DNA of 64,000 nt from Tubiluchus corallicola (lineage: Eukaryota > Animalia > Priapulida). The notes beneath the pieces are model-generated. The model made no database searches. It was not told where the DNA came from and saw only the letters and a list, made by a program, of their open reading frames with translations. The translations under genes were made by a program, and so were the position numbers. The DNA lies in NCBI GenBank assembly GCA_030141605.1, contig JAQGDQ010000292.1, positions 124,001 to 188,000 of the forward strand, given 5' to 3'. Positions 1,445-43,200 of this stretch are shown here, piece by piece. Every line of letters begins with the position of its first letter. The stretch's first letter is position 1.

Positions 1445-2234
1445 CTACATCTGATCAGGCACTGTCTTTTTGGGTGACTCTTCAAGATGGCTGCTATACA
1501 AAGGTGATACCAGCAACTCTGCGATCTCATTCTCTACTGCCTTACTGACATGGGAATCTAATCGCAATGTCATCTGATCATTCTGCTTGTTATCTATCTT
1601 CTCGAGTGCACATTCTGATGTTTCCTCTAACACGTTTTCTGGTTCGCTGTTATTTTTCTGAGCAGTTCCAGGTATTGGTGTGTTACTTTCAACACTGTCA
1701 ACGCTTGGTTTTCTTTGAGTCTTCGCAAAATGATGATCAGATGAGTTTTCCAAATCGTCACCAGGTTGAGCTGGATCGTCTACATCTGCAGCCGGTAGAG
1801 GACTACTTTTATTGATTGCCTCCGCCAAATGACTGTCATGCAAAGTTGCCGGATGAACAACTACCACCTCATTTTCTACACCAACAGTGACCTGCATGGA
1901 ATATGGTGACAGCATTTGCGGATCATTTTGTTTCTTGTCCAAGTTCTCAGATGCAGATGTTGGTATTTTATCTAATACGTTTTCTAGTTCCATGTTGCTT
2001 TTCTGAGAGGTCCCGGGTATTGCTGTGTCATCTTCAACGTTACCCTGGCTCTGTTTTCGTTGATTTTTCGACCAAACCTTCTGTATCCGTCGTCGCTTTC
2101 TTTTTTCCTTCCAATTACAAGGGCCTAAGGGAGGCAGAGCTGTTGGCGTTTTGGATCCAAACAGTTCTCCTGTGAAATGCCTCACAGAGCTTTCTGTCCT
2201 AGGAGAGTCAAGTAAATGCTGTGCGCAACAACAG
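1445..2234 (-). pseudogene. Orphan exon-like ORF with a two-copy, about 115-aa acidic repeat; frameshifted at its 3' end
   Basis: Acceptor tttctttgtgtttatag at 2235, frame open from 2234 to 1445. Repeats IPGTSQKSNMELENVL..LDKKQND and IPGTAQKNNSEPENVL..IDNKQND. The DVD[DN]PAQ of the second copy continues in another frame. Confidence 0.5.
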
Positions 2235-2459
2235 CTATAAACACAAAGAAAATGTATGGTTTTAGGTATTTATATTATATGTTTGGATAACTACGAACTA
2301 GTGGCACAATAATAGTGTTTTCAGCGTTTTCAAAGCAGAATGCACCGTTGATGAGAAAAAGACTGAATGAATGCAGATCCAGATCCGCAAGCGTGACTAT
2401 GTTTGGCCACTGTGGTTAAGTCATGTCTGTAACTGATTACTTGTGATCACATGTAACTT

Positions 2460-11410: not shown

Positions 11411-11426
11411 TTGCTTATTATTATAA
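10485..11426 (+). CDS. Retrotransposon gag (SAP/HeH-like N-terminus, E/R coiled coil, capsid region), truncated after RLDQAY
   Basis: 313-codon open frame. FLQWFEAVA...LSGKAAQAF...YNVVKKTLL...YLERFR is typical of Gmr1/SCAN-related gag. The true start codon is uncertain (the ORF starts at GTG). Confidence 0.75.
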   Translation: MESELQQLTVPVLKQITVERRLTLPLGANKAGIIDIIMNAQGNPVTTGEPSVRPKEVEGVSSTPSVSVAQMSGRRRVSDQLLATPPPADLTLHSAINGKPADDEMTERSVPLYNIEKLKLVEREKEREWEREQKREERHERMQREEREWEREREERRERMQKEQYQFELKLRELDASSPSHVTQVPPQSPDGILTTTASRIPRVKLSRVFTEETDDLHTFLQWFEAVAKANGLEEKHFAASLGPALSGKAAQAFQQVPLDSMQDYNVVKKTLLAAYVLSNDMYLERFRKITRRPDETFRQLLVRLDQAYCLLL

Positions 11427-22700: not shown

Positions 22701-25700
22701 AGTTGATTAGTTTTGGTTTATAAATTATTACAAGCGAAAAGGAAAATTTTCTGTTTATATTAAATTCTAGATTATATCTACTCTTCAGTAAATGATATTG
22801 AACAGTATTGTGAAATTGTATATGGGGTTGAAAAATTCAGATTTAAAACTACATTCTGTTTCCTTCTGACACTATTTTTTTGCAAAAATACGTAAACTTA
22901 TTCCATACTAGCATGAAATTTTGCAAAATAGTTGAATACTGAAAAGTCCTGCATACTGTATAATTTTATGTGATTCTCGGTTACATTACGGTCAATAATT
23001 TTTAATAAATTCATATCAACTATAAAGAGCGTGAGGTAAAAATCTGTTTTATAGCCGTTGTTAATGAACATGATTAATTTAGATACGTAACAAATGCATC
23101 TAAACATGTCATTACCACACAAACTGAATGTTGCTAACTAAATATTTCTGTTTAGATATCATAATAATATCGAAATGTGTTACTAAGATTACATTTAACC
23201 ATTAGAAAGGAAAGCACAATTTTAATAAACCAGCAGTGTAATTTGACTGCAGGGTTCTGGTCAAGTCACGCGCGGTCAATACGAAGATACTCATTAATTC
23301 CATCTTGTTCAAGTAATCTACGTCTAGATAGATATTGTTTAACCAAACCTAGAGACGGCTGAAGCAAATAGTCTGGATAATTCTCGTATGTGTCAGGGAC
23401 CATGAAGCTTCCATTTCTTACTGTGGCATAACAACAGTGATCTACATCGCAATGTAGGCCTAGATGTAACAGTGGACACATAAGAGTATTATTTTACTTT
23501 CTTGTATTATCCTAGGTGGCTTTTTATATTGAACGACGTCGCTTTTTGTGAGTTTCTAATTTACTCTTTGCCTCTGAAAAAAATTCGCTTAAATTCAGTT
23601 TAGTCAATACCTAAAAAAATTCCTAATCCTAACCGTAATAGATCTAACTTTTATAACAATGAACCAGCTTATTGTAGTATTAGCTGCTATATAACAACAC
23701 ATTATATAATGGCACTTTGCTCCGGTAGGGCCATTCTACTTGAACTTCATGTTAATTTTGACGAGTTTTTTGCAGGATGACCAAAACTTGGAAAAAGTGA
23801 GCTTAGTCTTCCAAAGTTTTGATATACCAAGAGACGACAAAAATAAGTAAGTAATTATTATTTTTATAAAAAATTGCAAATATGTGGGTGAAAATGGGAT
23901 TGGTTTACATTTGGATGGCATAACTTCATTAAAGCTGATAATTAATTGGTGAATTAGATGTCATAATGTCGGTCTCTTACTTGTTCTCATCCTCGGATTG
24001 TAGTGCTGAACGGGTTCACCAAGACCGGTTTCTTTTTAGTGAGCTGTTACAAACAGATTTAATAAAACATCTAGTTCGTTATTTCTCACGATCTTCATTA
24101 GTGATGGCTCTAAACACTGCTCGCCTTGCTCACCACGAAGTCAAAAGACTTCAGTTGTATAAACATTGGTACTTCGCAGTCCATTTTCGAATCATAATTA
24201 ATAAAATGATACATCTTCTTCTTGCTTTCTTTCTATATGTTGTTTTTAAGCTTTTTACATCCAACTCAATGCGCTCTGAAAGTGCGCTACAGTCCCGTGT
24301 TACACTTTATTAGATGTGTACATATACAATGAGCATCCGCAAAAAAACTTCCGAATAGAAGGGGAAACAGCAAGGAATTTGACCGTCTGCGGAGTGCTGC
24401 ATTACCCCCCCCCCCCGCCTAGTACATTTAGCTGAAGTTAGCCAGAAAACTGGAGAAAATGAAGTTATGATTATGTTTACAAATAGTAAAAGAATAATAT
24501 TTTTCTACAGATGTGATGATGGACATATAGCTATATATCTGCAGGGACAAAATGAATCATACGCAGCAAATCACCGGTGGTGTGGGAATAACACGCGCCA
24601 TCTAGTGACGTCGAAAGGACCTAGACTCTTCATGGTGTTTCATGCAGGTTCCTTACAAGGTGGCGGATTTAAAGCTCAATATTCCTTTCTTACAGGTAGG
24701 AACAATACATTACGCTGTTGCCACAGTGAAATAAAACAAAAGTGCACCATCTGGCAAAAAAGCCAAGCAAATTGTTGCACACACTGTTACTCAAGGTACT
24801 GATTTTAAGTCGACAGTCATTTTGCCTTAACTGATATCAAGTTTGCAGGCTCATTTTGAAGCTACAAGGTAATTTAGAACATTTAACCTAAAACAAATCA
24901 GAACTTTTTTGATAAGCAAGCAAACTATTCTGCTTTGGATTCTCTAGCACTACTGATTAAATAAATTAGTTGGAAATGTTTTCCAAATATACAACTCTTT
25001 GCACTAGTATGATAGCATACAAACTAAACTGAATTTTTGAACTTATATTAGATAGTTGACCTTCAATTTCTAAATTTTTCTAAATTATTGCAAATAAGTT
25101 TTTTTAAGTTTTATTTGCCTTATGGTGTCCTCCTTTTCGTTACTGAACCAAATTTTTTTCACTGGCACATTTGCCTTCAGTCATCTCTTTGTCAACGTTT
25201 CTGTGGCAAATAAGGTTAAAATATAATAAATATACTACTTTAACTCTTTAGATTATGGGATACCAGGGACACCAGCTCCAGATGGTTCCTGTCAGTTTTA
25301 TTACAAAAGCTCTAGCCAAGAGGTTGGCAGTTTCAAATCTCCACGTCATCCACATAATTATCCTGATGACACAGACTGTGTTTACCTATTTCAAGCAAAA
25401 CCAGGACAGTTCATACGTTTGAGGTTTGAGAAGCTGGCGCTTGCTGCTCATGTACAAGGAGGGTAAGTTTGATGTTTCCAACTGTTTCAAGTAAGGTTTA
25501 TTCAGAGATCTGTTTCTGGCAATATTTAACCAGGTTTCATTTCCAAATTCTTTGATGCATTTTTTATGTAAGCACTGTGTGATATGTCTCGCACCGAGCT
25601 TAGACCGAAATTTGCTTCTCAAGGTTTCGTTTGACAAAGTTTCGTAAATTTTATTTTTATCACTCTAGCTTTCTTTCGTTATGGTAATTCTATATTGGGA

Positions 25701-28700
25701 ATTCGGCAAATATCCCAGCGATTCAGATAAGGGTTAATAAATACTGGTTGCGCTTGACTTCGCTATCAGATAATGCACTGCGCAAGGAATCTAATGTTTT
25801 GCTAATGGTTAAAAGAAGTACTTTCTGATATTAATTTCTCCTTTTATTAAAAAATGATATAGTGTCACTGTGTATGAATACTTTGTATATTGCTGAAGTA
25901 ACACAAGCTTCTTATGTTACTAACTGGAAAATGTATTAGCTGAAAAGTCATTTTACAGTAAATTTAAAACTTCTTTTAAATTGGAAATGTATTTGGCAAA
26001 TGTGAAGAATGCTAAAGATCGAAAAACAGTTGCTAAACTTAGAACAAGCACTCTCTCACTCACTGACTATTGAAATTTGGGGGTCTATAAAACTCATCGC
26101 GGCAGTATATATTCCAGAATTTTACTTTTTAAATATTTTTGACGAATTAATTCGTATGTCATATTATGTCAATGTTCGCAAATGCATGTAAAATTTTCTT
26201 ATATGCATTCCTGTTATTTAAACAGCTCTGTTGGCCAAAAATCAATAAAATAATTATTATACATGTCCTACAGAATTGAGTAGTAAATCTAATATCCGAC
26301 AGATGGCGCAACAGCCTTCGTTTTCAATCATCAAGTGGGAGCAGACAAATACGATTAAGCAAAAAAACTTCTTTAAATCCGATTACATCCAAACCATGTA
26401 AAGGAAATAGTTCTATTGTAGTTTGCATATTATAGTCTACTTTAATAGATAAATAAATCACTGTATTCTTGATAGTCAAAGAATACTGAAAAAGGTATTT
26501 CCCTTTATTCATTAATCAAAAGACCTTGAATAATGAATAAAACAAGTCTGTGTATAAGATAACAGGAATTCGGTTTTTCACTTAGTAATTAAAGTTTTGA
26601 ATTCCATGGAGAAACGAGGTTCTAACGTTTCTAACGTTTGTTGATTACTGATGTATATTAAAATAGTAATTGACCGATTTCCAGAAAAAGTACCACTGTT
26701 CCGGGTGTGGGCGAGGGGAAGTGCTATCAGAGTGGTGAATTCTGAAGGCATCCGAACACAGACACGCAAAAACCCCAAATTGCCTTCTCTCGGAAACAGA
26801 CAAGCAACAACAAAGGGTAATATAGATTAAAGGCATAATTTTGTTATTGTAGGATTTCCCGAGGTGCGGACCTCTGTAAAGAAGACTGGTTAGAAATTTG
26901 GCAAGTTTGGCCAGAATCTGAGGGTGGTCGAGAGGTGTTGATGGGACGCTATTGTAGAGAACTCGTACCAGGACCTGTAGTTTCTGAGCCTGGCGTTACC
27001 ACGTACGTATAAATACATACTGTCATCATTAAAATTTTTATTAAGAAGTAAGTTAATGCGTCCCAGTTTTTGTCAAGGACATAACCACTTTCAAACTTGC
27101 TTTATCATCGCCAGTAAGGACTGGTTGGATCATAACTCCGTCAGGGCTGTAGTACCTCACTTGACAAGTAGGCCTCGGCTTCTGGCGGAATTAATTATTC
27201 TTTTGTAATTACAAAAAAAGGTTGCATGGTAAACGAGTTGCAAACTGGCAGGTTCTTCTTGTATGCTATAAGGCAAATGTGACGAAACCAACTGCTTGAA
27301 CATTAGAAATAGAAAAAATGTGAGGAAAGGGATCAGCCATCCCTATTGTCAGTTACGGTTCCTAGACAAGTGCATTTATACGCCCATTTTACATTCAGTT
27401 CTTATAAGAATCGCAATATTTTTTCATAATAATTGCAAAATTCGCACTGTTTTGTGCAAGACATTATCGATATTTTAGCAACGAAAGCCTGCTAAGTTCA
27501 CTTAATACTTTCTACTACTGTTGCTATTATGTACACAGTTGCTAGGGAAAACAATTTTCAAGTCGTTACTATAGCAACTGCCACCATTCCTTTGTATTAA
27601 GCTTTGCTGTCAGTTCCCATAATGGTAAAAATAGTTTTCCCATACTATTTTTCAAACTAACCTTGCTATCAATGCCGTTGCTAAGGTTGCTTAAAGGCAA
27701 CAAATTTATGAGACTAACATTTTGCGTTATCAGCCATAGATGGCAGGCTAGACGGCATTAAATAATACTCAATAATCAAAAAATCAGCAGCGACATGGTT
27801 GCTAAGGCTAATTCTGCGTGGGACAGTCCTAAAATTCAACCAGCCCTAAAAAATTCCAAGTTGACCAAGGCCAATTCATGGGGAATTTTTTCTGTAATAC
27901 TACCTAACATCCTGATTCAGGAAAAACAGAAAGCATTTGTATTACAGTTAAGTCCCAAAACACTGTTCCCGATCGGCCTAATTGCACAATATCAATAACC
28001 ACTTTCGCAAAGCGTTTATTATATGGTACGGAACAGGAGTCTCCATCTATTAAAAATGGTCATATTAACGGGAAGCTAGACTAGCTTTGAATACAGTTTT
28101 CAAGTACTTTATTTCATTAATGATATTGTAAGATTCAGTTTATTCAATTTCAATTTAATCAGTTTATTCAATTTAAATGAACATCAATCCATAACATTGC
28201 CTTGCAAACTTTTTATCAATTTTTATTGAATAACTGGCATACAGAAAATTTTAAATCCTAATGGGAAGCATATAATCGATAGAAAGCGTGAAAATATTTA
28301 AACGTCAGTAAACTTTAATTAACTGCGGAAAAGTATAAAAGATATGCTGTCAGAATCATTTTTCAGTTTAACAAAGTTTACATAACTAGGAGAAAAAGAA
28401 AACTAAAAACAGCCTCTATAATACGTGTAATTAATTACTGGATTATAGAATTAAGTTATAAATTGCATTTTATACACTTTTTGAGTCTTCTAAGATTTGT
28501 AACATTAAATCAATAAACGCATTTCGCAAAAAAATTCGAGATATGTGTTGTTTTATTTGCTGTTACTGATCTTACGGTAATAATTATGGTTAAATTAATA
28601 ATACAATGACGAAAAATTGAATAATGCCTGAAAGAAAACATTTTTTCATTTGAATATAATTAAAGATAAGTGTCCAAGCCATATACATATATTTAAGGAA

Positions 28701-31700
28701 AGCTGTGTTAAGGCCGCAAAATAAATGGCAACCCTAATAAAATTCATAAAATAATATTTTTAATGTGAATTAGTAATTAAATGAAACACATCTTAGACGT
28801 GTAAACTACCTAAGTGAAGCAACACCTAATGTTTTTATACTTCAATTTTTTATTACGCCATTATTGACAAAGCATTGTAGCTACGTACATAAAGGTGCTG
28901 TCAAGTAATAATATATAATGAAAAACTCTTATAGCCATTTATGTTATTAACTTTGAAATTAATCAACTGATCAGGATTATTCAAACTGATGTTTAAATAT
29001 TAAATACGGTTAAATTTAAATAATTATGTAAATGCGCTGTCTATGATTATATTATGAATGAGTTCTTATTTTAATTGAAGGTTACACATGATTATAGTAA
29101 GTACTGTATAAAATAATGTCAGTCTTCTCAGATACTGTATAAGGTAATATTTGATATGTAAGTAATTAAATATTTGATACAATACAGATAATGTATTTTA
29201 TGAATTTAGTGTGCAATTTTTTACGCAATGTATTTTCAACATACTAGTGTCCTGGACCGGTCCACATTAACAGTACGTGTTTTGTGCGTACACGCTTCAT
29301 GAAAGATGAATCTGATTATATGGAAATTTTATCTCCAGCAAGGTTGGTGATGAATGGCTTCGTTAAGATGACCAACTACCGTTGCAGTTCATTACAGTTG
29401 GCTTCACCACGCGACCAAGCAGACGTTCTCTCCCCATCTTCATTCACACAGAAACAACGACCTACAATCAAACATACTTATATCCAATAATTAAATTTTA
29501 TATAATTGAACAGCATTATAACAGTAGCATTCTTCTGTTAATTAATGTGCCAAATAACTAAATGGTCGTTAAAATAGCATAAGATTGATTGTGAAAATTA
29601 GGATTAATTCTCCTGCTGTTCAATTTGGATTTTGTCCGTTTAAGTTAAGATCTATTAAAAACGACGTAAGCACGAAGTTTATCCAAGTTACGCAGACATC
29701 TCCTAGACTGTGCGCCTATGTCTCGCATATAGAATATGTATTTACCTTCCAAAGACTTTTTAACGAGTTTGTGTGATGAAGTAAAAGTGATTAGTTCGTT
29801 TCTTTTCGTGACTTTTTTTGTTCTCTTACGAAGTTACGCGATTTACGCCATAATTCATGTGATATGCTCAAAATCAGCTACATTTAATTATATTAGTGAT
29901 TTAGAACTATTAATGTTTACAGAAAACATGATCTAAAGAAATGAAACGTGAAAGGTCTAGCTGGATTTGAACTGTAGGCGTATTTGCTTATTTTCCAAAC
30001 TTTAATTACTACGGGTTTGTTTCATCAATAACTGATAATAAATCGTAATAGAATTGTATAATTAATTCCATTAATATAGCTGGTTTTAAGTAGATTACAA
30101 TGCAAAACACAAGGCCAGAATTTATCTGGATTTATCGTGTCCGCAGATAGATTGCAAGTTGAGAGTTATTTATAACCAAAGAGCAGACTGATCACCGAAT
30201 TGTTTCGTTTTATTGCCTCGCTGAATCCTCAAAAGAGCTGATTGTGTTCAGACAGGCAGCTAAGTTGATAGGCTTCAAGTACCAAGGTATTTAAGTAATA
30301 ACGTAAATTACAGAAACCCTTTTACGCACAAAAACGAGTAGCTATAAAAAAGTCGTTTACGTCTCTCAAAGATAACAACAAATTTGATCAATGAGAGTCA
30401 ATATTTATTTATACTCCTTCTACCCCAGAGCAATACGTTTGCGAAACTTCCAAAGGATATCAGAGAAATCACTAGCACCCTCTGCTGTTTCTACCATGAG
30501 GATGCCATCCTACCTAACCTGTCTGTAAATCTAACTGTGTTTTTAGCCCACACCCACCATGTTTGTTTTGCTTGTTTCACCTCTTTTCATAACCTGTAAT
30601 ACCATCACCAGTTAACGCGTTGCTTTTCTCAGCGTGTATACTAACCATGCGCACCCTAAGCTTCTAGTATGTCGTCAAAGACTTTTAGAAGTATATTATT
30701 CAAGTATTCAAGACTTAAGTAAAAAGACTGTTGCAGGACTTGATATATAAAATTAAAAACATTACAACTATAAATGAACTAGGGAGAAAGTATATGCAGA
30801 ACAGAATCGTGAGTCGAATGCTTTGTTTCTTTACAATCTATGGTCGGCAACAGTAGCTTGTTATCTGTTATCCTATTGATTTGTGCGTGAGTCAGAAATT
30901 CTTGATACCTGTACGACAAGCTAGGGAACGTGGTTGAATGCACACATTCACATGATGTGTAGAACTTTCCAAACGCACATAAAAATCAAATCGCAGAACA
31001 TTAAAAGGGGATTGTCAATAACTGCCTGTCAATAACTTCGACCTGTCTTTTACGCAGAAGCCAGTTTGCAAAATTGTTACTAAATGTTCTTTGCTAATTT
31101 TGGTTTTTAGTACGATACAACTTTTCAAGAGCTTTTAAAGGGAAATTTAAAATATCTTTCAAGAAGTTTAAAATCCCAATATTATTCCAATATTAACCAA
31201 TTGTTTGATGAAATATTAATCGCTTGTTTGATGAACTCAGGGGTCAGTAAATAAAAAAGGATAAACAATACGGCGGTATCCAGGACTTTAGTTTCCAACC
31301 CGCTTAGAAAGTGTTGAACGTTACTATGAGTTTTTACAAATAAACCAAGCGTCGCGTCGAACCAGTACTCACGTTAATTTAGCCAGATAGAAGAAGTTCT
31401 TCGCGGCATCTAATGAAGCTAAGACGTATACCTTGACGAAAAGAAACTTTCTTTGATGAACAAACCACAGCGGCTTTTCCTCATGCAAACTTCGTAGTTA
31501 CAAAACTGCAACGCTTATAACGATGTTCAGTCTAGAAGTCTTCTTACTAGTTTATTATTTGCTTTTCTTATTGACAGTGGGCCTAATCTTTATCAATTTT
31601 TGCACCCCTTTTATCTCAACCATCATCCGCGAATTCTATTGTTTATAAGTATGTACTACAAAGACGTCTGCAGACAGACAGAATAATAATTATTTAGGCC

Positions 31701-32006
31701 TTCATAACTGTTTGACTTACGATCTGTTGTGCACTGATTTGCCATATATTTTCCAGTCACTGCATCACAGTTGGGCACCCAGATATCATCCAGCACAATT
31801 GGTGCATCGAGTACAAGAGCAAGGTGCAGTTCACATCGGGTTATCCCATAAGGTATCCTGGCAATGGTGTCTGGAAGTACCCAATTTTGTGGAATTTGTT
31901 GTATGATGTTATTGAGATCTTCATGCCAGTCTAAATACAGACACAGCACCAGCTATTACAAACCTTATTACAAACCTTACAACTTGAATTAAAAGTCTGA
32001 ATGGCT

Positions 32007-32079
<73 letters not shown>

Positions 32080-35000
32080 ATTTTTTTAGTAAACTAATCT
32101 TATCTGCATATTATATATTAGCATATCCCAGTAGCCAAGCTCAATTCGCAAAACCCTGTATTTTCTGTAAAATGGAACTCAAGACGATGCTTATAAAAAG
32201 TTTTCAGCATTTAATGGATAAATAACTTGTGCCTATCCTACTGTTCAAGATTTAGGCCTACTAAGTTTTTATGAAACAGGGAAAATACGCCTTCGTGTAG
32301 GTCTAAATTTATTCCAATTAGTTTCCGAAAAGAAAAAAATATTATTTTACCTTTCTTAGACCTTTCTTTCTCCTGAAAAAGTAATGATGTATATAATTAA
32401 TGCATTAAATATACCCAGTAAGAATTAGGCTACATAATTATGTGATAATGGGATTAAAATAGCGATATTTTAATATTATAGTAAGCATTTATTAAAAAGT
32501 ATATAAAATTCTTCAGCATACTGCAAGCCAGAATTCAGCACTCAGTTCTGGGCCTTCTATAGTTGTTAAATTGCTGTAGCGCTACCGGATTCTAGCTAAT
32601 TACCAAAATAATCTTCTACAATGCGACAGCGAACTGGTATAAAATATTAACGCGTCCGGGTGTAGCCTGTACCAGTATGTACATCAGCATACATCCCAAG
32701 ACGTTGTAGAATTTAATATGCTACCTAATAAGTACTTTTCCCGTCAGTCACTCATTCATTTGCTAGTTAGGCTCAGTGTTGCTTAACTTTGAGGTTCAAG
32801 CACCAGCCGTGACCACTCAGATGTTTACCGCCTCAAAATGACAATTGTAAGCCTATACTACGTCAACTTATTATAGTCACAAATATTTAAAAACAGTGAC
32901 TTGAAATGATAGAATTATTTTCACCAAGTAAAAGCTGAATTGTACTGAAGAGCATTGGGATCAGGAGTCATGATATAAAAATGTTTTTCAGTTTGACAGT
33001 CATTATCTTGATAAATGATAATATTGAATTTTATGGTGATTATATCGAAATTTATGTCGTTAATATCAACTTTTATTCTGTTAGCGCTCATTTCTATCTG
33101 GATAATATCGACTTAATCTTGATAATGTCAGCACTTATGTTGTAGTGTCTAATTATTACTGTAGCCTAACAACTGACTGCCAGTGCAACTTTCTAGGTGG
33201 TAGCCAGGCCGGACAAGAGAGGGGACAGGGGGCAGTGCTACGAGGCCCGGGTATTGAGAACAACAGTTACCCCTTCTATGCCCAGAGGGAACTGAGGGTG
33301 GGCGGTCACGCAAACACTGTCCCGGGCCCGCAAAGGCTCTCGACGACCTTGGTGGTAGCTGTTTGAAGAAGTGAACTATTATACATATAATTGTCGCACT
33401 TTTTTGTTAATGCGTGCCAAATCTAATACATGCATTATTTCTGCCCATATCTCGGCTAACACCAAGAGTTTTGCAAACATTTACAATACTTCCACCTATA
33501 TGCAAATGGCACAATTCTCATACTGCTCAGCAATTTACTTAGTTATTTTCAGTATAAATTATCACTATGGTGTTTTTGACGGTATCTTCTATACTCCGCT
33601 AGAACATGATGATTTTTCCGGTCCGAATATGCTAGAAGCACAGAAAAATTTTCGGGCGCTCTTTAGCTCTATTTGGAAACACAGTGTGTTTCAGTAGACA
33701 TTTGCTAATTTAATTTTCAATTTTATTATCAGCTAATCGATCAGCGAAGTTCATCTCTTAGTAAATTGTTGCTCAGTAATTGAATCCACATGTTAATGAA
33801 GGTTTGTCTTCTGCTACCCTACTGACTGTAAATCAAAGATGCAAAATCGCTGCCTGGTAAGAAAGAGGGTGGTATATAGGCGCGAATTAAAAAAGCTGCA
33901 GCGAATTATAGAATTATGAATTATGAATTACAGACTTAGCTACCAAATTGTCACTTGTTCTCTGTTGCAATTGCAACTATTTTTAATATCAAAAAGACTT
34001 GAAAATAATGAGGAACTTTTGAAACATTCACCCACTACTTTGCAAGGAAAATCTGCTCGGTAGCTACTCATCCATTGTCTAATTCAGCATCACCTTTTAA
34101 GCACGCTCTTACAGATCAAATTAATATTACGAAGATAACAAAATAACAACATAAAACTTGATACTATCGGGTTAACTGTTGGTAGTAACGACATAAAATT
34201 CTATATCGTCAAGAAAAAGGTTAGTATTATCAAAATAAAACTCAATCTTATGAACAAAAAATCTCCATTGTCAACTTTAATGTTGATGTTATCAAGATGA
34301 AAAGCTAACAGTGTCATATAAAAATCGGAAATAGCTGATGTGGAGTTGATATTATAAAGACTAACATGTTGAGATATTCAACAAAATAAGATGATATTAT
34401 CAAAATTAAATGTCAGAAATTTAAAAAATATTTTTATTTTATGATCCTAATAACCTTTTTGACACGGACGATGTTTAGGCTATCTTAAAAAACTAAAACG
34501 ACAATAAAATCTGTATATGCTTACTTAATAGAGTGGATATTATGAAGAAAAATTGAATTTTTTCATAATTTCAATTTATAATTGGGATTAATGTTTATTA
34601 GGTATTTATGGCACAGCAAACAATTTGTTAAAACAAAAAAGAACTATTATGCAAAAAAACAATTAATATGATGGATAGACGTTTAAGACAATTAACAATT
34701 CTGGAAATCAACTGTGAATATTTCAAAGATACCGATATTGGAAACCTGACAGTTTTGTTGGCACTTTTTTCAATTTTTGTGTTATTTATAAAACAGTTAA
34801 TAATACAACATTACCGTAAAATCTTCTAACTTCTCATTAACGCTCCTTGCTTCTAATTTGCTGACAAGTAAAGTTGAAACGCACGCGGTAAAAAATAAGA
34901 AAGAAAGTTTTATTAACTCCATTTTAAATAACGTGTTTAAATAATATAGAATTTAATGCTTGTCTTAATGGTGTTGTATCAGACACTAAAGTGAGCGCTA

Positions 35001-38000
35001 CCGTAAACTGCGAAATCTGAATGCGCTGAAACACCTGCGCAACTTGACGGATGCAAGCAAGGTGTAGATCATGCAGCCTGCTCGTGATCAAGAAACTTCT
35101 TTTTTTCTGAAAACTGTGAATGAGACAACTGCCTCACCATTTTGCTGATTATGCCTGCTGTTTTATTGTAACTTTTGTAGTCTTTTTCTGAGTTAGTTTT
35201 TCTCTAAGTTCTTTCTTCGAATGTGAAGCCTTTCAAACACAGTTGCGTATAATTAACCATTACTACCCCATGGGTGGATATAGAGTCTATCTCGCTGTGG
35301 ACATCAGCTTAGCCATTGTTAGTTTGATTAATTGACAGCAAGCTTCATTACATGCAGCGATAAATCCATATAAGATGATTATCTCGTTAATAATGATGAT
35401 CATAAGAAATCTCTGAATCATGAAATTGTCTCGTTTCGATGCGCCTGCTATTATTGCGTCATCACCATTTATCTTCAAACATATGGGTAACGTTTATTAA
35501 ACTCTCAAACAGTGCAGCAGTAATAGCTTTTTGAGGACAATAAAAAAATTAAAATGTGTGTACGAAAATTAAGGCTTTCTAAAATGAATATAACGTGGTG
35601 TGATACTATGTAGCTAGCCTACATATTATGCGACGTCACGCAGAATATTTCTGTTTACATAAGTGGTTAAATGCCATGCCTAATTATATAATAAATAATT
35701 TCTTAATGCAGAATTGGAAATCATAAACACGCTAATGTGCTTCTATTTCATAATATGTGTGTGTGTGTGTGTGTGCGTGTGTGCGTGTGTGCGTGCGCGC
35801 ATGTGTGTGTATCTTAAAGTTAGGTGTTGCACGTACACTCAATGAACAGGTTATTTACCTTATTAGGGCAGCTACTTCAGCTAATTGAATCTTGCTCTAA
35901 TTGTTATTACCTGTTGCTGCTGCTGCTTATGTAAAGCAGTAATTACTGTTTGGAGGACTCCTCAAGTATAATCGAGCGTGAAGGAAATCATACACAGTTA
36001 AATGGACTTCTATAATTACATGCATCAAGTTGTGTGAGTATGATGTATAAGTTAAAATGTATCTATTATATGCAGCTAGGGCGCACCACCGTAGTCACAC
36101 CGTAATGACCATTAAAGGTCTAATATTTGTATCAATTATTGTAATATTTGCTATAATTTTTTCTCTGTAAATTGAACGTTAGCGATTTACGTAGAAAAGA
36201 AATAAACTTCTGGAAAATCTAAAAACTATGGTGATTACTAGAAAACGCTGGTTTTTCCTGATTAAGGTAAATCTTTTAAGAGAACTAGTATGGGCTTTTC
36301 ACCCGTGTCCTTTCTGACTACAGCTAAATCCATTGAAAATAGCAGATTTCGGGTAATGTTGATTATGATCAACTACTCGCCATTCATAATCGCATTAATA
36401 CTAAGACACTGCACCGTATAAGAAATACTTGATATATTTAAGAGAACTAGGTAAGACATAACTATCTACGTTTCGGGCTATACCTGTTATACCATGTTAT
36501 GTTAGAGTTTTACTTTTTATTTATTTTTTGTATACTCCTTATTTTCCCGCGACATGTTTCATTACAGACTGATATAGGATGATGTTCTACATACCTGCCA
36601 ATTAAAAACTCGGTTTAAGTTAATCGTACAGCCATAATAACGAACTTTTACTATATGTTAAACTCTTTAACTTTCATGTGCTATTTAGTATCGTAAAAGC
36701 TGTTTATTTCCACAAGTTGGATTTAGTCTTGCACTCCGTTTACATTGAAATGTGATTTGAGATTTGTTTTCAATTATTTTTTGTCTTCACTTATAAAAAG
36801 GGCTGTTTTTTACCATTACATGCTATGACAAAAATATACCGTTACTTGACAACAGAAAACATTTCTGCCTAGACAATCTGCGAATCGTTAATTAATCACC
36901 GAATATCTTTTTTCAGATTAAAAGTTTTGTTTCATTCTGATAATGTGTACAGAGCTAGCGGCTTCAGCGCAGCTTATCGTTTCATGCCAATAGTGAAGCC
37001 AAATGCACAGAGCTTAGAGTCAGGTGAGTAATCTTTTACAATCGCAATTTCACAATTAATTAGTGCCTTATAAAAAACTTATAAAAACAAGGACACGGTG
37101 CAATTTCACTAGCGGAACATAGCGATTGTTTGTCGGTTCTATCATTGTCAGTGACATTACAAACATTACTAAATTCATCTGCATGTAAACACAGCTGATA
37201 CATACTACTTTTTTAACTCGTCACTACCAGTTATTTCAATCATTTAAATGAAGTTCTAGTAATTAGTATTCAAAATAAACTAAGTCATTTATAAGGCTTT
37301 GGTTTCATTGATATAATCAACACTCTCGTCTAAAATGTCCTAAAAACACTTTATCAACATGTTTAATAAATGCTCGAGTTAGTTCCAAATCACACAAAAA
37401 CAAAATTGCACAGTCAAGAACAAAAGCATTGATAATACTCATAAGAACGTGTTCTTGCATTGACGTGCTTATGTAGTTTCTCTCTGAAATCATTGTAATT
37501 TGGACATTTTTATAACAAAGATGTACATGCAAGTATTTAAGTCGCCAGCAGTTTCATTCTTGAATAGTGTGGACACAGTACAAAAATATGGGTATTAGAT
37601 GGTTCAACCAAGTGCAGAGAAAGAGGAATCGTTACATAAAACTTCTAATAATTATATAGAGGGCTGGTGGCCCTTTTGCCTTGCGTTCGAAGTTGATTGA
37701 ACAACCAATCAGTTAAATTTTATGCTCTGTAATAACGCGGGCTTAATAATTATTTGCAATAATATTTTAGCTTGTGGTCGTAACATAGAAAAGCAGACGA
37801 CTGGTACGTTTGAGAGTCCCCAGTACAAAATTAAGTACACCGTGCAGATTCATTGTAACTGGGTGATTACTGTGAAGCCACGTCACCAAGTATTAGTTCA
37901 TTTTCCGCAGAAAGCCTGGCTTGCAGTGGAGGGCAACATGGCAAGTAAGTTACATTTAAATAATTATGAATGGATAGCTTACTGGTTTACGTTGTTGTTG

Positions 38001-40256
38001 TTGACGTTCGTTGTTTGTGATGCCAGCAACAACATTTACAACAACTCAATGATGACAAGTGTTGACTGAGTGATAATCATGACGGTCGTGTAACAACATT
38101 GATGGATGCCGATAACTGCGGTGCTAATGCTGGCGCTAACAGCAGCAGTTGTGAATACGACTGATTTTAGTTTTATAGTTCTGCATAAGCCAACAAAATT
38201 AAGGGAAGGGGGACCTGAAAAAACACAAGCAGCTGCTAACAATTAAGGGCGCCACACAGTCTATACTCATTATTGTTGTTGGTGGTGGCGGTAATGATGA
38301 TGATGATAATGAAGACGAGGAGGAGGACCATGATAACGACAATGCTGATGATGACAATCGTGATATTACTCTTATTTTTAGTAAAGACTAATCTGTTATT
38401 ATTGTGCAGACTACAATATAATAACCGCATATATAAAATGATGCCAAATCATGTCTCAAATGGTGTTGATGATAATGTTGATATTGATATTGTTGATGAT
38501 GATGTGTTGATGCTGTTATTGATGATGATGATGACTTCGGCGGTAGCAGCGGCAATATTAATCATGCTTCTGTTGTTGTTGTTATTATTATTATTGTTAT
38601 TTTTGCTGCTGATTCGATTTTGTTGCCTGGGTTGTCGACGACACTAATGATATGAAGTATACTGTTCAGAAGTTCTGATAAACTAGTTTTGTTGTTTATC
38701 TGGTATTAAAAGATTGTTACTAATTACAGCTGTTGTTGGTCACACTAATAAGGTCATCTTATTCATGGCGGCACATAATTAGCACTAATAATTAATGCTG
38801 TGACTACGAAACTAGCTTTATTATAGATTGTGATTAATTTGGCGAAGCTACATAGTATATGGAGTTATTTGTATTATTCATTTCAGCTAATGTTGGGTGT
38901 CAAGGTGCAGCTGTGCGAGTTTACACAAACAGCACTGATTTACTAACACCCACGGCCGAATTTTGCGGTGAAAATCCACCTCCTCAATATCGCCAGTTCA
39001 TATCCACCAGTAACGTTATCCGGATCACGTAAGCATCATACGCTACCAGTCCTGAACAAACAGTTTAAAAATTAACGAAAATGATCGGTTCTTGTTAAAA
39101 GTGTAAGTTTACGGATGCAATTGTACCAAATCAATGAAGTCGTGGTGATAAAAAGCAAGAGATAAAATCGCTTAAATACTCTGCATTAAATGCGCCCGAT
39201 CAATATCGTCAATTCCTGTTCTGTGCGCATTACTACTCTATTATGAACGATTTAGCAAGTGTTAAAATTTACGTCTTCAAAGTGAACCACACATTTCAAT
39301 GGCTCTGTTTTGAAATTTCTACGTAATTCTTTTTGTTGTTTTGTACTGTTATTTACTTATATGATCGTATATTCCATTAAAGAAATTATAATTCTACATT
39401 TTTAGGTTTACAACATCAGAAAAGGCTGCTGGAAATAAAGGATTCCTGGCTGCTTGGTCTGAAATATCACACGGTACCTATACTCTATGAAAAATACAAT
39501 TTCTTCTTCCTGTGCTAGACAACCCATAAATATTAGGGAAAATTTAGCAATCAGCAGAGGTTTTCATATAAGCAGCTAAGGTAGTTGCAATAGTATTAGC
39601 GTTTATTACGTGTATAAATAAATTAATGTACGAAAATTATTTCAGATCGTGTGTGTGAACACGGCTTCAAGTGTAAAATTAATAACTACTGCATCGATAA
39701 AAGTCAACTGTGTAAGGCTAAAAGATATCAACATTATGAAGTTTCCTACTGCGGGGAACATGATACATCTGACATAGCTGGATGTAAGTATTAAATAAAA
39801 ATCTGTTCATTTTATGTTATTTTTGCAAAAAGTAATCATGAATAAGTATCTGTCTATCTATCCTTTAAATCACTGTCTGCTATGTGTTTCCATAAGTACA
39901 TACTTCATGTTTATTTATTACAAGTCACGATTGCAAAATCAACAACATACACTTGAAATATTAACAACAATTTTGTGAATACAGGTGATACAACCTCTGA
40001 TAATAAACTTTACGTGATCATTGGAAGTTCAGCGGCAGCAGTGCTAGTGGTTCTCACTGCCATCATCGTCATCTGCTACCGTCGCCAGCACACGAAGTCA
40101 CAGCCAAAGTCCAAGTCATCGTCCAAAACTGAAGTAAAGGCCATGATGATGATAAACAATTCGAAGTCACACTTACACAATGATTTGGGGCACGTTGACT
40201 ACCATCCTGCACCCCAGATCGATACGGTCATTGTGTCACACCAAACTGTGGTATGA
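13780..40256 (+). CDS. SOL-1 (suppressor of lurcher)/LEV-10-like type I membrane protein: 5 CUB + LDLa-like + TM + PDZ-binding tail; 5'-partial, about 830 aa
   Basis: 17 GT-AG exons join in frame: 13780-13874, 14214-14296, 14890-14976, 17061-17194, 17581-17788, 18517-18728, 21541-21695, 23776-23846, 24511-24695, 25252-25462, 26853-27002, 36917-37023, 37771-37944, 38887-39028, 39406-39473, 39646-39783, 39985-40256. CUB motifs: GTFHSPNWP, GNILSPTYP, GTVYSPNYP, GSFKSPRHP, GTFESPQY, with YCG/GF motifs. GLEDDQNLEKV and DYGIPGT recall SOL-1-like proteins. TM is YVIIGSSAAAVLVVLTAIIVICY; ends HQTVV*. Confidence 0.88.
15877..15996. repeat. Compound pentanucleotide microsatellite (AACCT/AACAT/AGCAT/AGCAC)
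   Basis: Seen directly. Confidence 0.95.
18775..18972. repeat. (GGT/GAT/GGC)n low-complexity trinucleotide tract
   Basis: Seen directly; intronic, just after the donor at 18729. Confidence 0.9.
19350..20839 (-). mobile_element. 5'-truncated non-LTR retrotransposon (LINE): RT C-terminal half plus CCHC tail, frameshifted, in an intron of the CUB gene
   Basis: VRQGTVLGPLL, LLFIDDI and YQYLG RT motifs in ORF 19976-20839. ORF 19506-19958 has CPVC...TTEHMLRC. There is a frame break near 19970 and a short (GATTGC)n repeat near 19404-19430. Confidence 0.88.
21312..21390 (+). mobile_element. tRNA-derived SINE head (degenerate)
   Basis: A-box-like TGGTGTAACGG and B-box-like GATCGATTCC at tRNA-like spacing. 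No full cloverleaf. Confidence 0.45.
25960..26250 (+). mobile_element. Degenerate LINE 3' fragment
   Basis: YLANVKNAKDRKTVAKLRTS followed by frameshifted SHSLTIEIWG resembles the 'AKLRxSxHxLxIExGR' C-terminus of LINE ORF2. Confidence 0.55.
29376..32372 (-). CDS. Nested antisense gene encoding a thyroglobulin type-1 (thyropin-like) domain protein; 5'-partial
   Basis: Exon 31930-31721 (acceptor gtctgtatttag, donor gtaagt) and exon 29461-29376 (acceptor ttgattgtag, stop TAG) join in phase 1: ...TRCELHLALVLDAPIVLDDIWVPNCDAVTGKYMANQCTTDRRCFCVNEDGERTSAWSRGEANCNELQR*. This has six Cys with P-x-C, QC and C-[WF]-C-V-x-x-x-G motifs. A probable 22-nt exon 32372-32351 (EKERSKK) lies upstream. Confidence 0.85.
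32009..32076. repeat. (AT)n microsatellite
   Basis: Seen directly. Confidence 0.97.
32955..34455. repeat. Degenerate foldback element with TTGATAA/TTATCAA subrepeat arms, containing the 33205 MITE
   Basis: The left arm (about 32955-33130) is rich in TTGATAA and ATATCGA. The right arm (about 34160-34455) is rich in TTATCAA and GATATTAT. The ends are loosely complementary. Confidence 0.5.
33205..33351. mobile_element. hAT-type MITE, 147 bp
   Basis: Perfect 8-bp TSD GTGGTAGC (33197-33204 and 33352-33359), imperfect TIRs, and GGCCCGG/GGGCCC subterminal motifs. Confidence 0.8.
35755..35810. repeat. (GT)n/(GC) microsatellite
   Basis: Seen directly. Confidence 0.93.
38265..38610. repeat. Low-complexity (GAT/GTT/ATT)n tract
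   Basis: Seen directly; intronic. Confidence 0.85.
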
Positions 40257-43200
40257 CCGCATGGAATAAAGCTGCGCACGAGGGTGGACTTGATTTGATG
40301 ATATGATTGTGCCGTATGTGAATCTGTATCACGTATGGACCATTGCACGAACTCTAACCAAAGACGTTTCAATCACTTTCATGACACACTTAGTGCAGTA
40401 ATACAAGTGGGTCTACCAAAATCTTACTAATTATTACTATTGAACTGAATTTAATTAAAAGTTATTAAAAGTGTATTTTACTTGGAGTGCAGAAACAGTT
40501 GCTTTATATGCAATATGTTGATTGCACTTTACCAGCAAAAGCATTGTCGAAAAAATTCAGTTTGAAAAGCATCATTCTTCTCTTTTTCCAAATATGGCAC
40601 ATGTCCCAAGGGTCAGTGTATTCTCATAGCATGCAATTTGTCATGCACAGTGTTGCTGCTAAGGCCAAGTGTACGTGTGATGAAATTATCCAAGGAAGGA
40701 GAGTAATTGAGGTAAAATAGGCAAGCTAGCTCAGCAGGTTAATGTCAGTTTGGCACGAATGTCTTCTAATATCTGGTTTACAGTAGTCTCTTGCAATAGC
40801 TATATGCTTTAACCGTGCACTGAGATATATGTACATGTTTTAAGATATAATGTATGGTCCAATGGGAGTCTCTTCTCTAGTAATTGGGCTTCTCTTCGCA
40901 TGGGCACAAACGTGTAATTTAACTGTACACTTTAACAATTATTAGCCTATACTATAACTGCTTATGTAAATAATAACTTAATTGTTTGTAAATAATATAA
41001 TTAATTCAATAATAATAATATAATTAATTCGAATGTGTTAAAAGCAGGTAATTTTAATTTGTTTTATATTATAGACACTTTACAGCACAGGACTTAATAG
41101 TTTATCCCCTCCCTCTCTCTAAAATTCTTCTCTGAGCCTAAAAAAGTGCATTTTAAGATTTTTTCGTAGCTCATTCTAATCACTTCTTTTTAAATTTGAT
41201 AAAGAGGTGGCCTAAAACAATTTTGCAATAATCTAATATTTCAATAATTGTACAGAAAAACATTTACATTGCATGGTTTTATATTCTCCTTTTTGCAATT
41301 ATGAAGCAGAATAGTAAGTTATCACATAATTACAAGGCAAAGACTTTATATGTCCAAGCATTTATTCTGTGATCATCTGTCAGTAAGATTCACGTATTAA
41401 GAGATTAGTTTAGTACATTTTGTCTTTGTTACAGAGAAGTGTAATTAATAACCCTACTCAGGCTTGCACATAGGCACATGTAATAATTTCTATGGCTTCC
41501 GATAATTACAGTGAAGCCCTATTGTGTACTTGCTCAACATGTTAATGAATCTTCCCTTTGTGATGCTTGACTCCAAGCAATCTTAATAATTATTATCAGC
41601 CATTATAAAGACCGGCAGTGGAGGCAGCAGTTTGGTATGAACAAAGAGGCTAAAGAAGCGTACAACATCAATGTGTTTTCAGTTAACGGCCTCTAGCTGT
41701 AGGACATATTTGCACTGTATATTGTTATTCATCGCTACAGGAATGGGTTCAAGTGCATCAGTATACTGAAAATTCATGGCTACTTAAATGATAATCATTA
41801 AACTTTCCAGGTTTTAAAATCATGTACCCTTGTGAAACACTAGTTTTAACAGTTCATCTTCTAAATGTCGATATATTTTTATAAAAAAGTGCTGAAAGTC
41901 AATTATTTAAAACAGGAAAGTTGTGCTATGTGCCTAGAAATCAACAGTAACATATTCAATTCATTAGATTTCGTGGATTCGAATGAAAAACGCAAATCTC
42001 TGGTTTGTTTCTAAGCTATCAGAACTTTTTCACATTTTCTTTCGTTCAGTCAGACTTGAATTCAGTAAATTGGTGGTTGTGAATTCTTCCTATCTATTTG
42101 TTTACACACTTATCAAGCTTTGAAATGTGGCTTTATTCTTCAGATATAGTTGGGATACTTAAATACATCCATTCTAACATGCACCTAGCTCAACGGAAAA
42201 GTGCAAATGTTCATTTAACAGTTCATTTAACAACACCATCCATTAATACATGTAGTCGATTACATTCAGTAAAACGATGGCATCAAACAGAGATTAATTT
42301 GGTCTACCTTAATTACTTACCATAAAGATATTCAAGATAACATTTTTTGTTAAAACAAATATGTATGTATTAAACATCTTTTTTGTAGTAAAAGCTTTTG
42401 TAGTGCATATAAACTTCACGAAACAATATGTATGTAAATGTGTATGTATGTAAATGTATCAATTATGGCAAACATTAATTTTTCAACCTTAATGTATTGT
42501 AATAAATGACCTATAATTATATTATTTCATTTTATTGCAAAAGTTCTATATAAATATATTTCTATTGAGTTTTTACATAATTGGACACAAATTAAGTGTA
42601 ATTCTACAAAAATTGTTTTTTAACATACCATCACTGTAAATACTATGACTGATTTTAGGAACTGCACGGTTTTGTGTTACATGCAATGCCAAATAATGCA
42701 ATGTCCAATAAGTTAAGCTTGACAGACAATCACATTCACATTCAACAATAACAGGAACAGGTGATTACCTGACCAGGTGAATGTGAATCAAAAGAACAGA
42801 TCGAAACAAAAGTATTTATGTGGCCTCACTGCAACATTAGAGCTTGGTCTCACAGTTCACCATAACAGGACATTATTATGGTATCTGTTATAGGATGAAA
42901 ACATAAACATGCAACTTAATATTCAACAGAAAACTGAGCAATAATAATAAACTATAACTATGGGAATGCTTCTGTAACTTTCTTCTCCATTATACCATGT
43001 AAATAAATAACAAAAAATAACTATGCATGTTGCAGTAAAATCTAATGCATGTTTTGTTTTTTTATTGTACGTCCTTCTCAAGAATATGTAGCCAAGATTG
43101 TACAAATACTGTTGGCTACATATTCTAAAGAAAGACTTAATGTCCAAATATTGATACAAAAAACAAAAATACACTAGATTTTACTACAACAAGCATGGCT

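What the first reader, a model, noticed from the sequence alone, without database searches (positions are those of the whole stretch)
29376..32372. Hidden antisense thyroglobulin type-1 gene nested in the 9.9-kb intron of the SOL-1-like gene
Seen: two - strand exons with consensus splice sites join in phase. They rebuild a full six-Cys Tg1 domain (RCE...WVPNCDAVTGKYMANQCTTDRRCFCVNEDGER...ANC) followed by a stop five residues later. The host intron (27003-36916) splits CUB4 and is by far the longest between the identified exons. Established: Tg1 domains occur in thyropins (equistatin, saxiphilin, p41 invariant chain, testican), often inhibit cathepsins, and also occur in IGFBPs and some venom or secretion peptides. 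Inference: this is a small, probably secreted single-Tg1 protein that annotation could easily miss. Whether it is functionally tied to the host receptor-auxiliary gene is unknown.
Basis: partly seen in the sequence, partly recalled or inferred. Interest (0 to 1): 0.82.

Follow-up and report, generated by a model that had tools for sequence, protein, structure and literature searches.

The report
Small secreted Tg1 gene inside intron
A real four-exon gene lies backwards inside a large intron of a CUB-domain membrane-protein gene and encodes a 141-residue, predicted secreted protein with one thyroglobulin type-1 domain that likely inhibits cysteine proteases; both the nesting and the protein type are ordinary in animals.

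Summary
A 607-nt contig from a related, RNA-like run joins four minus-strand exons: 34922-34815, 32372-32351, 31930-31721 and 29461-29376 plus UTR. The frame gives 141 aa: signal, a charged pro-like segment ending in Lys-Lys, a 32-residue linker and one six-Cys Tg1 domain. Against that run, 8 of 13 listed coding changes are synonymous (p about 0.003), and all 7 gaps lie in the UTR. The nearest relatives are small single-Tg1 proteins of Priapulus caudatus. A profile of them scores the protein at 68 bits against at most 9 for shuffles. Most likely it is a secreted thyropin-like cathepsin inhibitor (about 0.55). This is untested, and the loop-1 Gly of known thyropins is Asp in this family. Nothing ties it to the host gene; antisense nesting is common (about 10% of fly genes). 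New member of a known kind; low interest.

The parts
34815..34922 (-).
   Evidence: Contig of X2 covers 34818-34900 and joins it to the downstream exons. Hydrophobic core, 11-residue mean hydropathy up to 2.2. In-frame stop 11 codons upstream; AAAATGG context. The ATG itself is not covered by the contig.
32373..34814 (-). Intron 1 of the nested gene (GT..AG)
32351..32372 (-). Exon 2, a 22-nt micro-exon encoding the basic stretch that ends in Lys-Lys (candidate convertase site)
   Evidence: AG/GT flanks. The 23 letters that X2 holds between 31932 and 34818 match it with two synonymous changes (compared by hand).
31931..32350 (-). Intron 2 of the nested gene (contains an AT microsatellite at 32009-32076)
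31721..31930 (-). Exon 3: linker and first part of the Tg1 domain (Cys76, Cys98, Cys110)
   Evidence: Pfam PF00086 E=0.0012; covered by the X2 contig with 13 differences and no gaps
29462..31720 (-). Intron 3 of the nested gene (2259 nt, GT..AG, phase 1)
   Evidence: X2 skips exactly 2259 nt. The tool places the cut one base over (29462/31722), which fits a one-base difference at 31721 (inferred).
29376..29461 (-). Exon 4 coding part: C-F-C-V motif, last three Cys (116, 118, 136), stop TAG
   Evidence: family-profile hit E=0.0066 on its own in a six-frame scan of the window
29170..29375 (-). 3' UTR (proximal part)
   Evidence: Covered by the same X2 contig; holds all 7 gaps
28113..28587 (-). 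Possible distal 3' UTR and poly(A) signals (AATAAA at 28557, 28227, 28168, 28144, 28113)
   Evidence: A separate X2 contig lies at about 28.25-28.59 kb; hexamers. The link to this gene is inferred, not shown.
27003..36916 (+). Host intron (9914 nt, GT..AG) holding the nested gene; splits the fourth CUB-like repeat
   Evidence: Joint 27002/36917 in X2
26853..27002 (+). Host exon 5' of the nested gene (CUB4, middle part)
36917..37023 (+). Host exon 3' of the nested gene (CUB4, end)

Best explanation
This is an independent, spliced antisense gene under purifying selection, nested in a long host intron; its 141-residue product is predicted to be secreted, likely trimmed at a Lys-Lys site, and likely acts as a one-domain thyropin-type inhibitor of papain-family cysteine cathepsins. 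Shown: the exon structure, splicing in a related run, coding constraint, the six-Cys Tg1 pattern, and membership of a small family with priapulid relatives. Inferred: signal cleavage near Ala25, processing after Lys43 to an acidic protein of about 98 residues (11.2 kDa, pI 4.5), the type-1A disulfides, and a wedge of three loops inserted into a protease cleft, with the long hydrophobic loop 1 setting specificity as in p41 and saxiphilin. The position inside the CUB-gene intron is most likely incidental, the usual case of a short gene lodged antisense in a long intron.
For: Splicing: one 607-nt X2 contig joins all four exons across introns that are GT..AG on the minus strand, and host exons are spliced in the same run. 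Constraint: 8 of 13 listed coding changes are synonymous over about 55 synonymous and 179 non-synonymous sites, Fisher p=0.003. The Cys76 codon changes silently. All 7 gaps are in the UTR, p about 5e-4 if placed at random. Family: P0005 and P0008 (Priapulus) and P0007 (unnamed) are 114-125 aa, with a hydrophobic N-terminus, a basic site followed by Asp, and one Tg1 domain; P0007 breaks off after the third Cys; P0011 (Priapulus, 90 aa) is the domain with a short tail. Cys spacing is 22-11-5-1-18/19 in P0005, P0008 and P0011 against 21-11-5-1-17 here. P0005, P0008 and P0011 pass the Pfam cut-off at 36.7, 47.1 and 47.9 bits. The family profile finds thyroglobulin, saxiphilin, p41, IGFBP C-domains and tick IrThy in the PDB. 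Small secreted Tg1-only proteins of invertebrates are cathepsin inhibitors where tested (IrThy; PMC10889554, sections 6 and 11). Nested genes make up about 10% of fly genes, are mostly opposite-strand, and are less co-expressed with their host than neighbouring genes are (PMC3814207, abstract).
Against: No activity data exist for this family. Many Tg1 domains are not known inhibitors (thyroglobulin, SMOC, EpCAM/Trop2; recalled). The loop-1 Gly that IrThy, p41 and saxiphilin conserve four residues before the Pro (PMC10889554, passage) is Asp92 here and Asp in 4 of 4 close relatives, which could alter or abolish cleft binding. The expression evidence is one contig of one run whose RNA status is a guess and which is about 93% identical, so not this individual. 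The contig stops 22 nt short of the ATG. 12 of the 26 differences in the laid pieces were not listed by the tool and are not in the synonymous count. No signal-peptide predictor was available, only hydropathy.
Confidence: 0.55

Rival explanations
1. The gene is real and secreted, but the Tg1 domain is not a cysteine-cathepsin inhibitor. It would be a binding or signalling module (for matrix, an insulin-like peptide as with the IGFBP C-domain, or a receptor) released by convertase cleavage, or it would inhibit another protease class.
For: The layout of signal, short pro-segment, basic site and Asp-aromatic start recurs in 3 relatives and resembles a prohormone. The loop-1 motif A-P-x-V-L-x-x-D-I-W is strongly conserved and replaces the thyropin Gly with Asp. 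The IGFBP C-domain 2dsq_G is tied for the top structural match of the relative's model (Z 4.8 against 5.2).
Against: There is no IGFBP N-terminal domain: no Cys lies between the signal peptide and Cys76. Loop 1 is the most variable loop among inhibitory Tg1 domains and is thought to set specificity, not activity (PMC6584486, section 7).
Confidence: 0.28
2. The nesting is functional: the small protein is co-expressed with the host CUB protein in neurons or muscle and modulates the host, its glutamate or acetylcholine receptor, or another ion channel, as a Tg1 spider-venom protein is reported to do for sodium channels.
For: The host has a SOL-1/LEV-10-like layout (PMC9083331). Both genes are present in the same run. 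A two-Tg1 spider toxin acting on sodium channels is cited in PMC10889554, section 11.
Against: There is no direct evidence. Nested pairs are less co-expressed than neighbouring genes in flies (PMC3814207, abstract). The family has at least three members on three different Priapulus contigs (longest contigs 331,733, 218,932 and 941,673 nt), so family members do not all share one locus. Presence in one assembled run says nothing about cell type.
Confidence: 0.07
3. The exons are a pseudogene, a chance match, or the tail of a larger gene that starts outside the intron.
For: Exon 3 alone is below the Pfam cut-off. The ESM Atlas does not recognise it, and it has no direct PDB sequence hit. The true 5' end is not mapped.
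Against: The four-exon frame is intact with canonical sites, the spliced contig exists, synonymous changes are in excess, and there are no coding indels. An in-frame stop lies 11 codons upstream of an ATG that opens a hydrophobic signal.
Confidence: 0.04

Closest known systems
Priapulus caudatus small single-Tg1 predicted proteins XP_014668918.1 (P0005), XP_014672757.1 (P0008), XP_014673228.1 (P0011), and the unnamed P0007
   Same: One six-Cys Tg1 domain with near-identical Cys spacing and the loop-1 motif A-P-x-V-L-x-x-D-I-W-x-P-x-C; 39-52% identity over the domain. P0005, P0007 and P0008 share the hydrophobic N-terminus and a basic site followed by Asp. P0007 reads through at the same point as intron 3 here, so the intron position is probably shared.
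   Different: This protein has a longer pro-segment and an about 18-residue longer linker before the domain, and one residue less in loop 1. Whether the relatives are nested in the same host could not be tested.
Thyropins (MEROPS I31): p41 invariant-chain fragment (PDB 1ICF), saxiphilin Thy1 repeats, tick IrThy (PDB 8R6T), salmon egg thyropin, equistatin
   Same: Type-1A six-Cys pattern, conserved loop-1 Pro, small secreted Tg1-only layout like IrThy. The family profile hits saxiphilin at E 7.9e-11, p41 at 0.0019 and IrThy at 0.28.
   Different: One domain with a pro-like N-terminal segment. The loop-1 Gly is Asp. The W-C-V motif reads F-C-V. Inhibition has not been shown.
IGF-binding proteins (C-terminal Tg1 domain)
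   Same: Secreted, with the Tg1 domain at the C-terminus.
   Different: No Cys-rich N-terminal IGF-binding domain; about half the size.
Antisense nested genes of animal genomes
   Same: A short multi-exon gene on the opposite strand, wholly inside the host's longest intron.
   Different: Nothing unusual found.

Membership tests
Thyroglobulin type-1 domain, subtype 1A (PF00086) | Six Cys in the Tg1 pattern (three disulfides) | tested here: met
   Cys76, 98, 110, 116, 118, 136; spacing 21-11-5-1-17, matching relatives that pass the Pfam cut-off. Disulfide pairing itself not tested.
Thyroglobulin type-1 domain, subtype 1A (PF00086) | Profile match above the curated cut-off (20.6 bits) | tested here: inconclusive
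   Pfam was scanned exon by exon: exon 3 gave 18.6 bits (E 0.0012) and exon 4 no PF00086 hit. The whole protein scores 68.2 bits on a profile of three relatives that pass at 36.7-47.9 bits.
Thyroglobulin type-1 domain, subtype 1A (PF00086) | aromatic-x-P-x-C, Q-C and C-aromatic-C-V motifs | tested here: met
   W94-x-P96-x-C98, Q109-C110, C116-F-C118-V; the usual Trp is Phe.
Thyroglobulin type-1 domain, subtype 1A (PF00086) | Tg1 fold (helix, beta-hairpin, three loops) | tested here: inconclusive
   Only the relative P0008 was modelled (mean pLDDT 53). The top 8 of 11 VIA rows are Tg1-bearing proteins, best Z 5.2, rmsd 4.7, 71 aligned. Foldseek's best E was 0.018 (saxiphilin), none at E 0.001 or better.
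Thyropins (MEROPS I31, functionally defined) | Inhibition of a cysteine (or aspartic) cathepsin | not testable with these tools
   Needs an enzyme assay.
Thyropins (MEROPS I31, functionally defined) | Loop-1 Gly and Pro four residues apart (conserved in solved thyropins; proposed to matter for specificity, not shown to be required) | tested here: not met
   Pro96 is kept; the Gly position is Asp92, and Asp in 4 of 4 close relatives. The saxiphilin Gly aligns to this Asp. Hence filed as thyropin-like, not as a thyropin.
IGFBP | Cys-rich N-terminal IGF-binding domain (feature recalled) | tested here: not met
   The only Cys before position 76 is Cys14, in the predicted signal peptide.
Nested antisense gene | Whole gene within one intron of a host gene on the other strand | tested here: met
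   34922 to at least 29170 lies inside 27003-36916, and both genes are spliced in X2. A non-coding 5' exon outside the intron is not excluded.
SOL-1 (host gene) | Four CUB domains plus one transmembrane segment (PMC9083331, PMC9546428, passages) | tested here: inconclusive
   Five CUB-like repeats (Pfam CUB E 0.034, 2.4e-6, 0.011, 3.2e-9, 1.9e-7), a Cys-rich LDLa-like exon without a Pfam hit and a TM exon. The count matches LEV-10 (five CUB + LDLa). Orthology was not tested; the homologue search with one host exon found nothing.

The most novel reading that the evidence does not exclude
A priapulid-lineage family of convertase-processed, single-Tg1 secreted ligands has lost thyropin activity through the loop-1 Gly-to-Asp change. 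This member is kept inside the intron of a SOL-1/LEV-10-type receptor-auxiliary gene because the two are co-expressed, and the peptide acts on the host's CUB ectodomain or its ion channel, as an endogenous counterpart of Tg1 venom proteins.
Probability: 0.05. Interest if true: 0.7.

Novelty: new member of a known kind. Interest (0 to 1): 0.24.

Why it matters
Modestly. It adds a correct four-exon model, including a 22-nt micro-exon and a signal exon that simple annotation may drop. It also points to a small, apparently undescribed family of single-Tg1 secreted proteins whose only close relatives found are three Priapulus models and one unnamed record. Its invariant Asp at the thyropin loop-1 Gly position is a natural test of what makes a Tg1 domain an inhibitor. 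It would matter much more if the nesting were conserved and the protein acted on the host receptor complex; there is no evidence for that.

Tried and rejected
No whole genome is held, so paralogues outside the window and synteny could not be examined. Within the window, a six-frame scan with the family profile found only exons 3 and 4. The run search returned no holder on record as RNA: 'no RNA holder listed'. X2 was an added run of the same species label. X1 gave long near-identical pieces in introns but little cover of the nested exons; not informative. Word-indexed homologue searches with exon 3 (longer proteins) and with a host CUB4 exon found nothing. The top four phmmer hits of exon 3 (P0001-P0004) are long repeat-rich proteins matched in 10-14 short stretches (LRR, PKD-like, HYR; P0003 has no Pfam hit) and were rejected as spurious. 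P0006 (ark clam) is a multi-Tg1 protein with the usual Gly, a more distant relative. The ESM Atlas did not recognise exon 3; for P0005 it gave only generic Tg1 clusters below 0.9. A PDB sequence search with exon 3 alone gave 0 hits. The metagenome scan gave 63 pattern matches and none was confirmed. The spliced protein itself was not folded; the relative's model is low-confidence. Earlier-findings look-ups by sequence, by words and near this place showed nothing. IGFBP membership was rejected. The Cys-rich reading in intron 2 just upstream of exon 3 (another frame, over a 12-nt tandem repeat) is not in the spliced contig and was rejected as chance.
Full report
Observation. An exon at 31930-31721, ending in C|GTAAGT, and an exon starting at 29461 after TTGTAG join in phase 1 and give a six-Cys domain, with the stop five residues after the last Cys. 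Pfam, scanned exon by exon, gave Thyroglobulin_1 for exon 3 at E=0.0012 and 18.6 bits (cut-off 20.6), and only a weak unrelated hit for the 27-residue exon 4.

The gene is longer. The run search listed 2 runs, neither on record as RNA. Laying both on 21200-41000 showed that run X2 (RNA is the tool's guess; same species label; about 93% identical over this contig) holds one 607-nt contig (repeated on a narrower stretch). It covers 29170-29462, then 31722-31932, then 23 unplaced letters, then 34818-34900. The 2259 nt skipped equal the predicted intron 3 in length; the cut is placed one base over, which fits a one-base difference at 31721 (inferred). The 23 letters match the 22-nt micro-exon 32372-32351 with two synonymous changes, plus a changed last codon of the upstream exon (compared by hand). 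That upstream exon runs from an ATG at 34922 to a GT donor at 34814. All three introns are GT..AG on the minus strand, so the contig is most simply a spliced minus-strand mRNA. The same run joins host exons on the plus strand across 25461/26852, 27002/36917 and 39472/39645, so both genes are spliced. Caveats: this is one contig from one study, contigs show neither strand nor level, and it stops 22 nt short of the ATG. The ATG is the first in frame after a stop 11 codons upstream and sits in an AAAATGG context.

Protein anatomy. The four exons give 426 nt and 141 aa. Residues 1 to about 25 form a hydrophobic signal-like stretch (11-residue mean hydropathy up to 2.2; cleavage near Ala25 is my inference, no predictor was run). 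Residues 26-43 are highly charged and end in Arg-Ser-Lys-Lys, a candidate dibasic site. A 32-residue linker follows, then the Tg1 domain (Cys76-Cys136) and five residues. There is no second hydrophobic segment of membrane-spanning strength and no N-glycosylation sequon. The segment 44-141 would be 11.2 kDa, pI 4.5.

Selection. One search counts 26 differing letters in the three laid pieces and lists 14; those near piece ends are not listed. One listed change is in the UTR. Of the 13 coding ones, 8 are synonymous and 5 change 4 residues (V20I, A81T, D85V, I88R); none removes a Cys. Against about 55 synonymous and 179 non-synonymous sites in the 78 codons surveyed, Fisher p=0.003; adding the micro-exon and junction differences gives p=0.003 again. 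The piece 29170-29462 has 7 gaps, while 29331-29462 and the other two pieces have none. All 7 therefore lie in the UTR (p about 5e-4 for random placement).

Relatives. phmmer of exon 3 against 1.84 billion representatives gave 8 hits at E up to 0.001. Four are long repeat-rich proteins and were dropped as spurious. One is a multi-Tg1 ark-clam protein. Three (P0005, P0007, P0008) are 114-125-residue proteins, two of them Priapulus caudatus gene models and one unnamed. A profile search found 4 proteins among 5192 candidates: those three and a third Priapulus model, P0011. They share the Cys spacing and the loop-1 motif A-P-x-V-L-x-x-D-I-W-x-P-x-C. P0005 and P0007 have Lys-Arg and P0008 Lys-Thr-Arg before an Asp-led mature-like start, parallel to Lys-Lys then Asp-Trp here. 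P0007 loses similarity at exactly the point where intron 3 falls, with the same Gly/Arg-then-Lys read-through, which suggests a shared intron position. A profile from P0005, P0008 and P0011 alone scores the window protein at 68.2 bits, against at most 9.1 for shuffles (903 of 1000 reported). In a six-frame scan of the window it finds only exons 3 and 4 at E below 0.01. The family profile recovers 15 PDB sequences at E up to 1, all Tg1-bearing: thyroglobulin, saxiphilin, p41/CD74, IGFBP-4 and -6, and the tick thyropin. A model of P0008 was low-confidence (pLDDT 53); its best structural matches were again Tg1 proteins, at modest scores. These relatives suggest, but do not prove, a priapulid or related animal; an earlier AI note on this genome guessed the same.

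Host. The plus-strand gene has five CUB-like repeats starting near 13.8, 17.6, 21.5, 25.3 and 37.8 kb, a Cys-rich LDLa-like exon at 39.65 kb without a Pfam hit, a transmembrane exon and a short tail. SOL-1 has four CUB domains and LEV-10 five plus LDLa (PMC9083331 and PMC9546428, passages), so 'SOL-1/LEV-10-like' is as far as the evidence goes. The intron 27003-36916 is the longest of the 13 gaps between the exons I placed. The host's first exon and the second half of CUB1 were not located.

Mechanism. Tg1 proteins with antiproteolytic activity are called thyropins. They insert three loops into the cleft of papain-family cathepsins, and loop 1 is held to set specificity (PMC10889554, passages and sections 6 and 11; PMC6584486, passages and section 7). 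Short secreted Tg1-only proteins are common in invertebrates, and the tick one tested inhibits cathepsins V, K and L (PMC10889554). The most likely working model is a secreted, possibly convertase-trimmed one-domain inhibitor that controls extracellular or luminal cathepsins (0.55). Against it, the loop-1 Gly conserved in solved thyropins is Asp92 here and in all 4 close relatives, and the prohormone-like layout allows a ligand role (0.28). A functional tie to the host is unsupported (0.07): in Drosophila nearly 10% of genes are in nested structures, mostly on opposite strands, and nested pairs are less co-expressed than neighbours (PMC3814207, abstract and opening). Pseudogene or artefact is unlikely (0.04).

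Literature. 'Priapulus' with 'thyroglobulin type' gave 0 papers. 'priapulid' with 'thyroglobulin' gave 4, seen as listings only, none about this by title. PMC3407033 (passages) shows thyropin domains across arthropods in many architectures. PMC5174743 was seen as a listing only. No supplements were read; the supplementary domain tables of PMC3407033 and subscription papers on Tg1 evolution could already list single-Tg1 invertebrate proteins. The labels IQGAP and gypsy-like gag, the IGFBP N-domain definition and the list of non-inhibitory Tg1 proteins are recalled, not from a call.

Verdict. A real, well-supported small gene, a new member of the Tg1-domain secreted proteins with a small priapulid family, in an ordinary antisense nested position. 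Interest 0.24.

Noticed in passing
window 13777-40253 (+): The host gene has five CUB-like repeats, a Cys-rich LDLa-like exon (39646-39782, no Pfam hit), a TM exon and a tail ending Thr-Val-Val, a class-I PDZ-type ending (motif recalled). The domain count is that of LEV-10 rather than four-CUB SOL-1.
   Followed up: partly
window 28250-28590: A separate X2 contig lies in the host intron about 0.8-1.1 kb downstream of the nested stop, near several minus-strand AATAAA hexamers; probably the distal 3' UTR of the nested gene.
   Followed up: partly
window 21200-41000, run X2: A run with the same species label is only about 90-96% identical in exons, which suggests a cryptic species, a distant population or a loose label.
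   Followed up: no
P0007: This unnamed relative reads through an unspliced intron at the same position as intron 3 here, yet has its signal and first half-domain in one frame: either a gene without introns 1-2 or a partly spliced transcript.
   Followed up: partly
window 19509-20845 (-): LINE-type reverse-transcriptase fragment inside a host intron (Pfam RVT_1 E=1.7e-8).
   Followed up: partly
window 10470-11423 (+): 318-codon ORF resembling a retrotransposon gag (resemblance recalled; no good Pfam hit).
   Followed up: no
window 1448-2269 (-): 274-codon open stretch, acidic and Ser/Pro-rich, with two roughly 115-residue internal copies; no Pfam hit. Possibly a large exon of an unidentified gene.
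   Followed up: no
   Followed up: no
window 30454-31114: A high-copy repeat (X1 depth about 296 against mostly under 25 nearby) sits in intron 3 of the nested gene.
   Followed up: no
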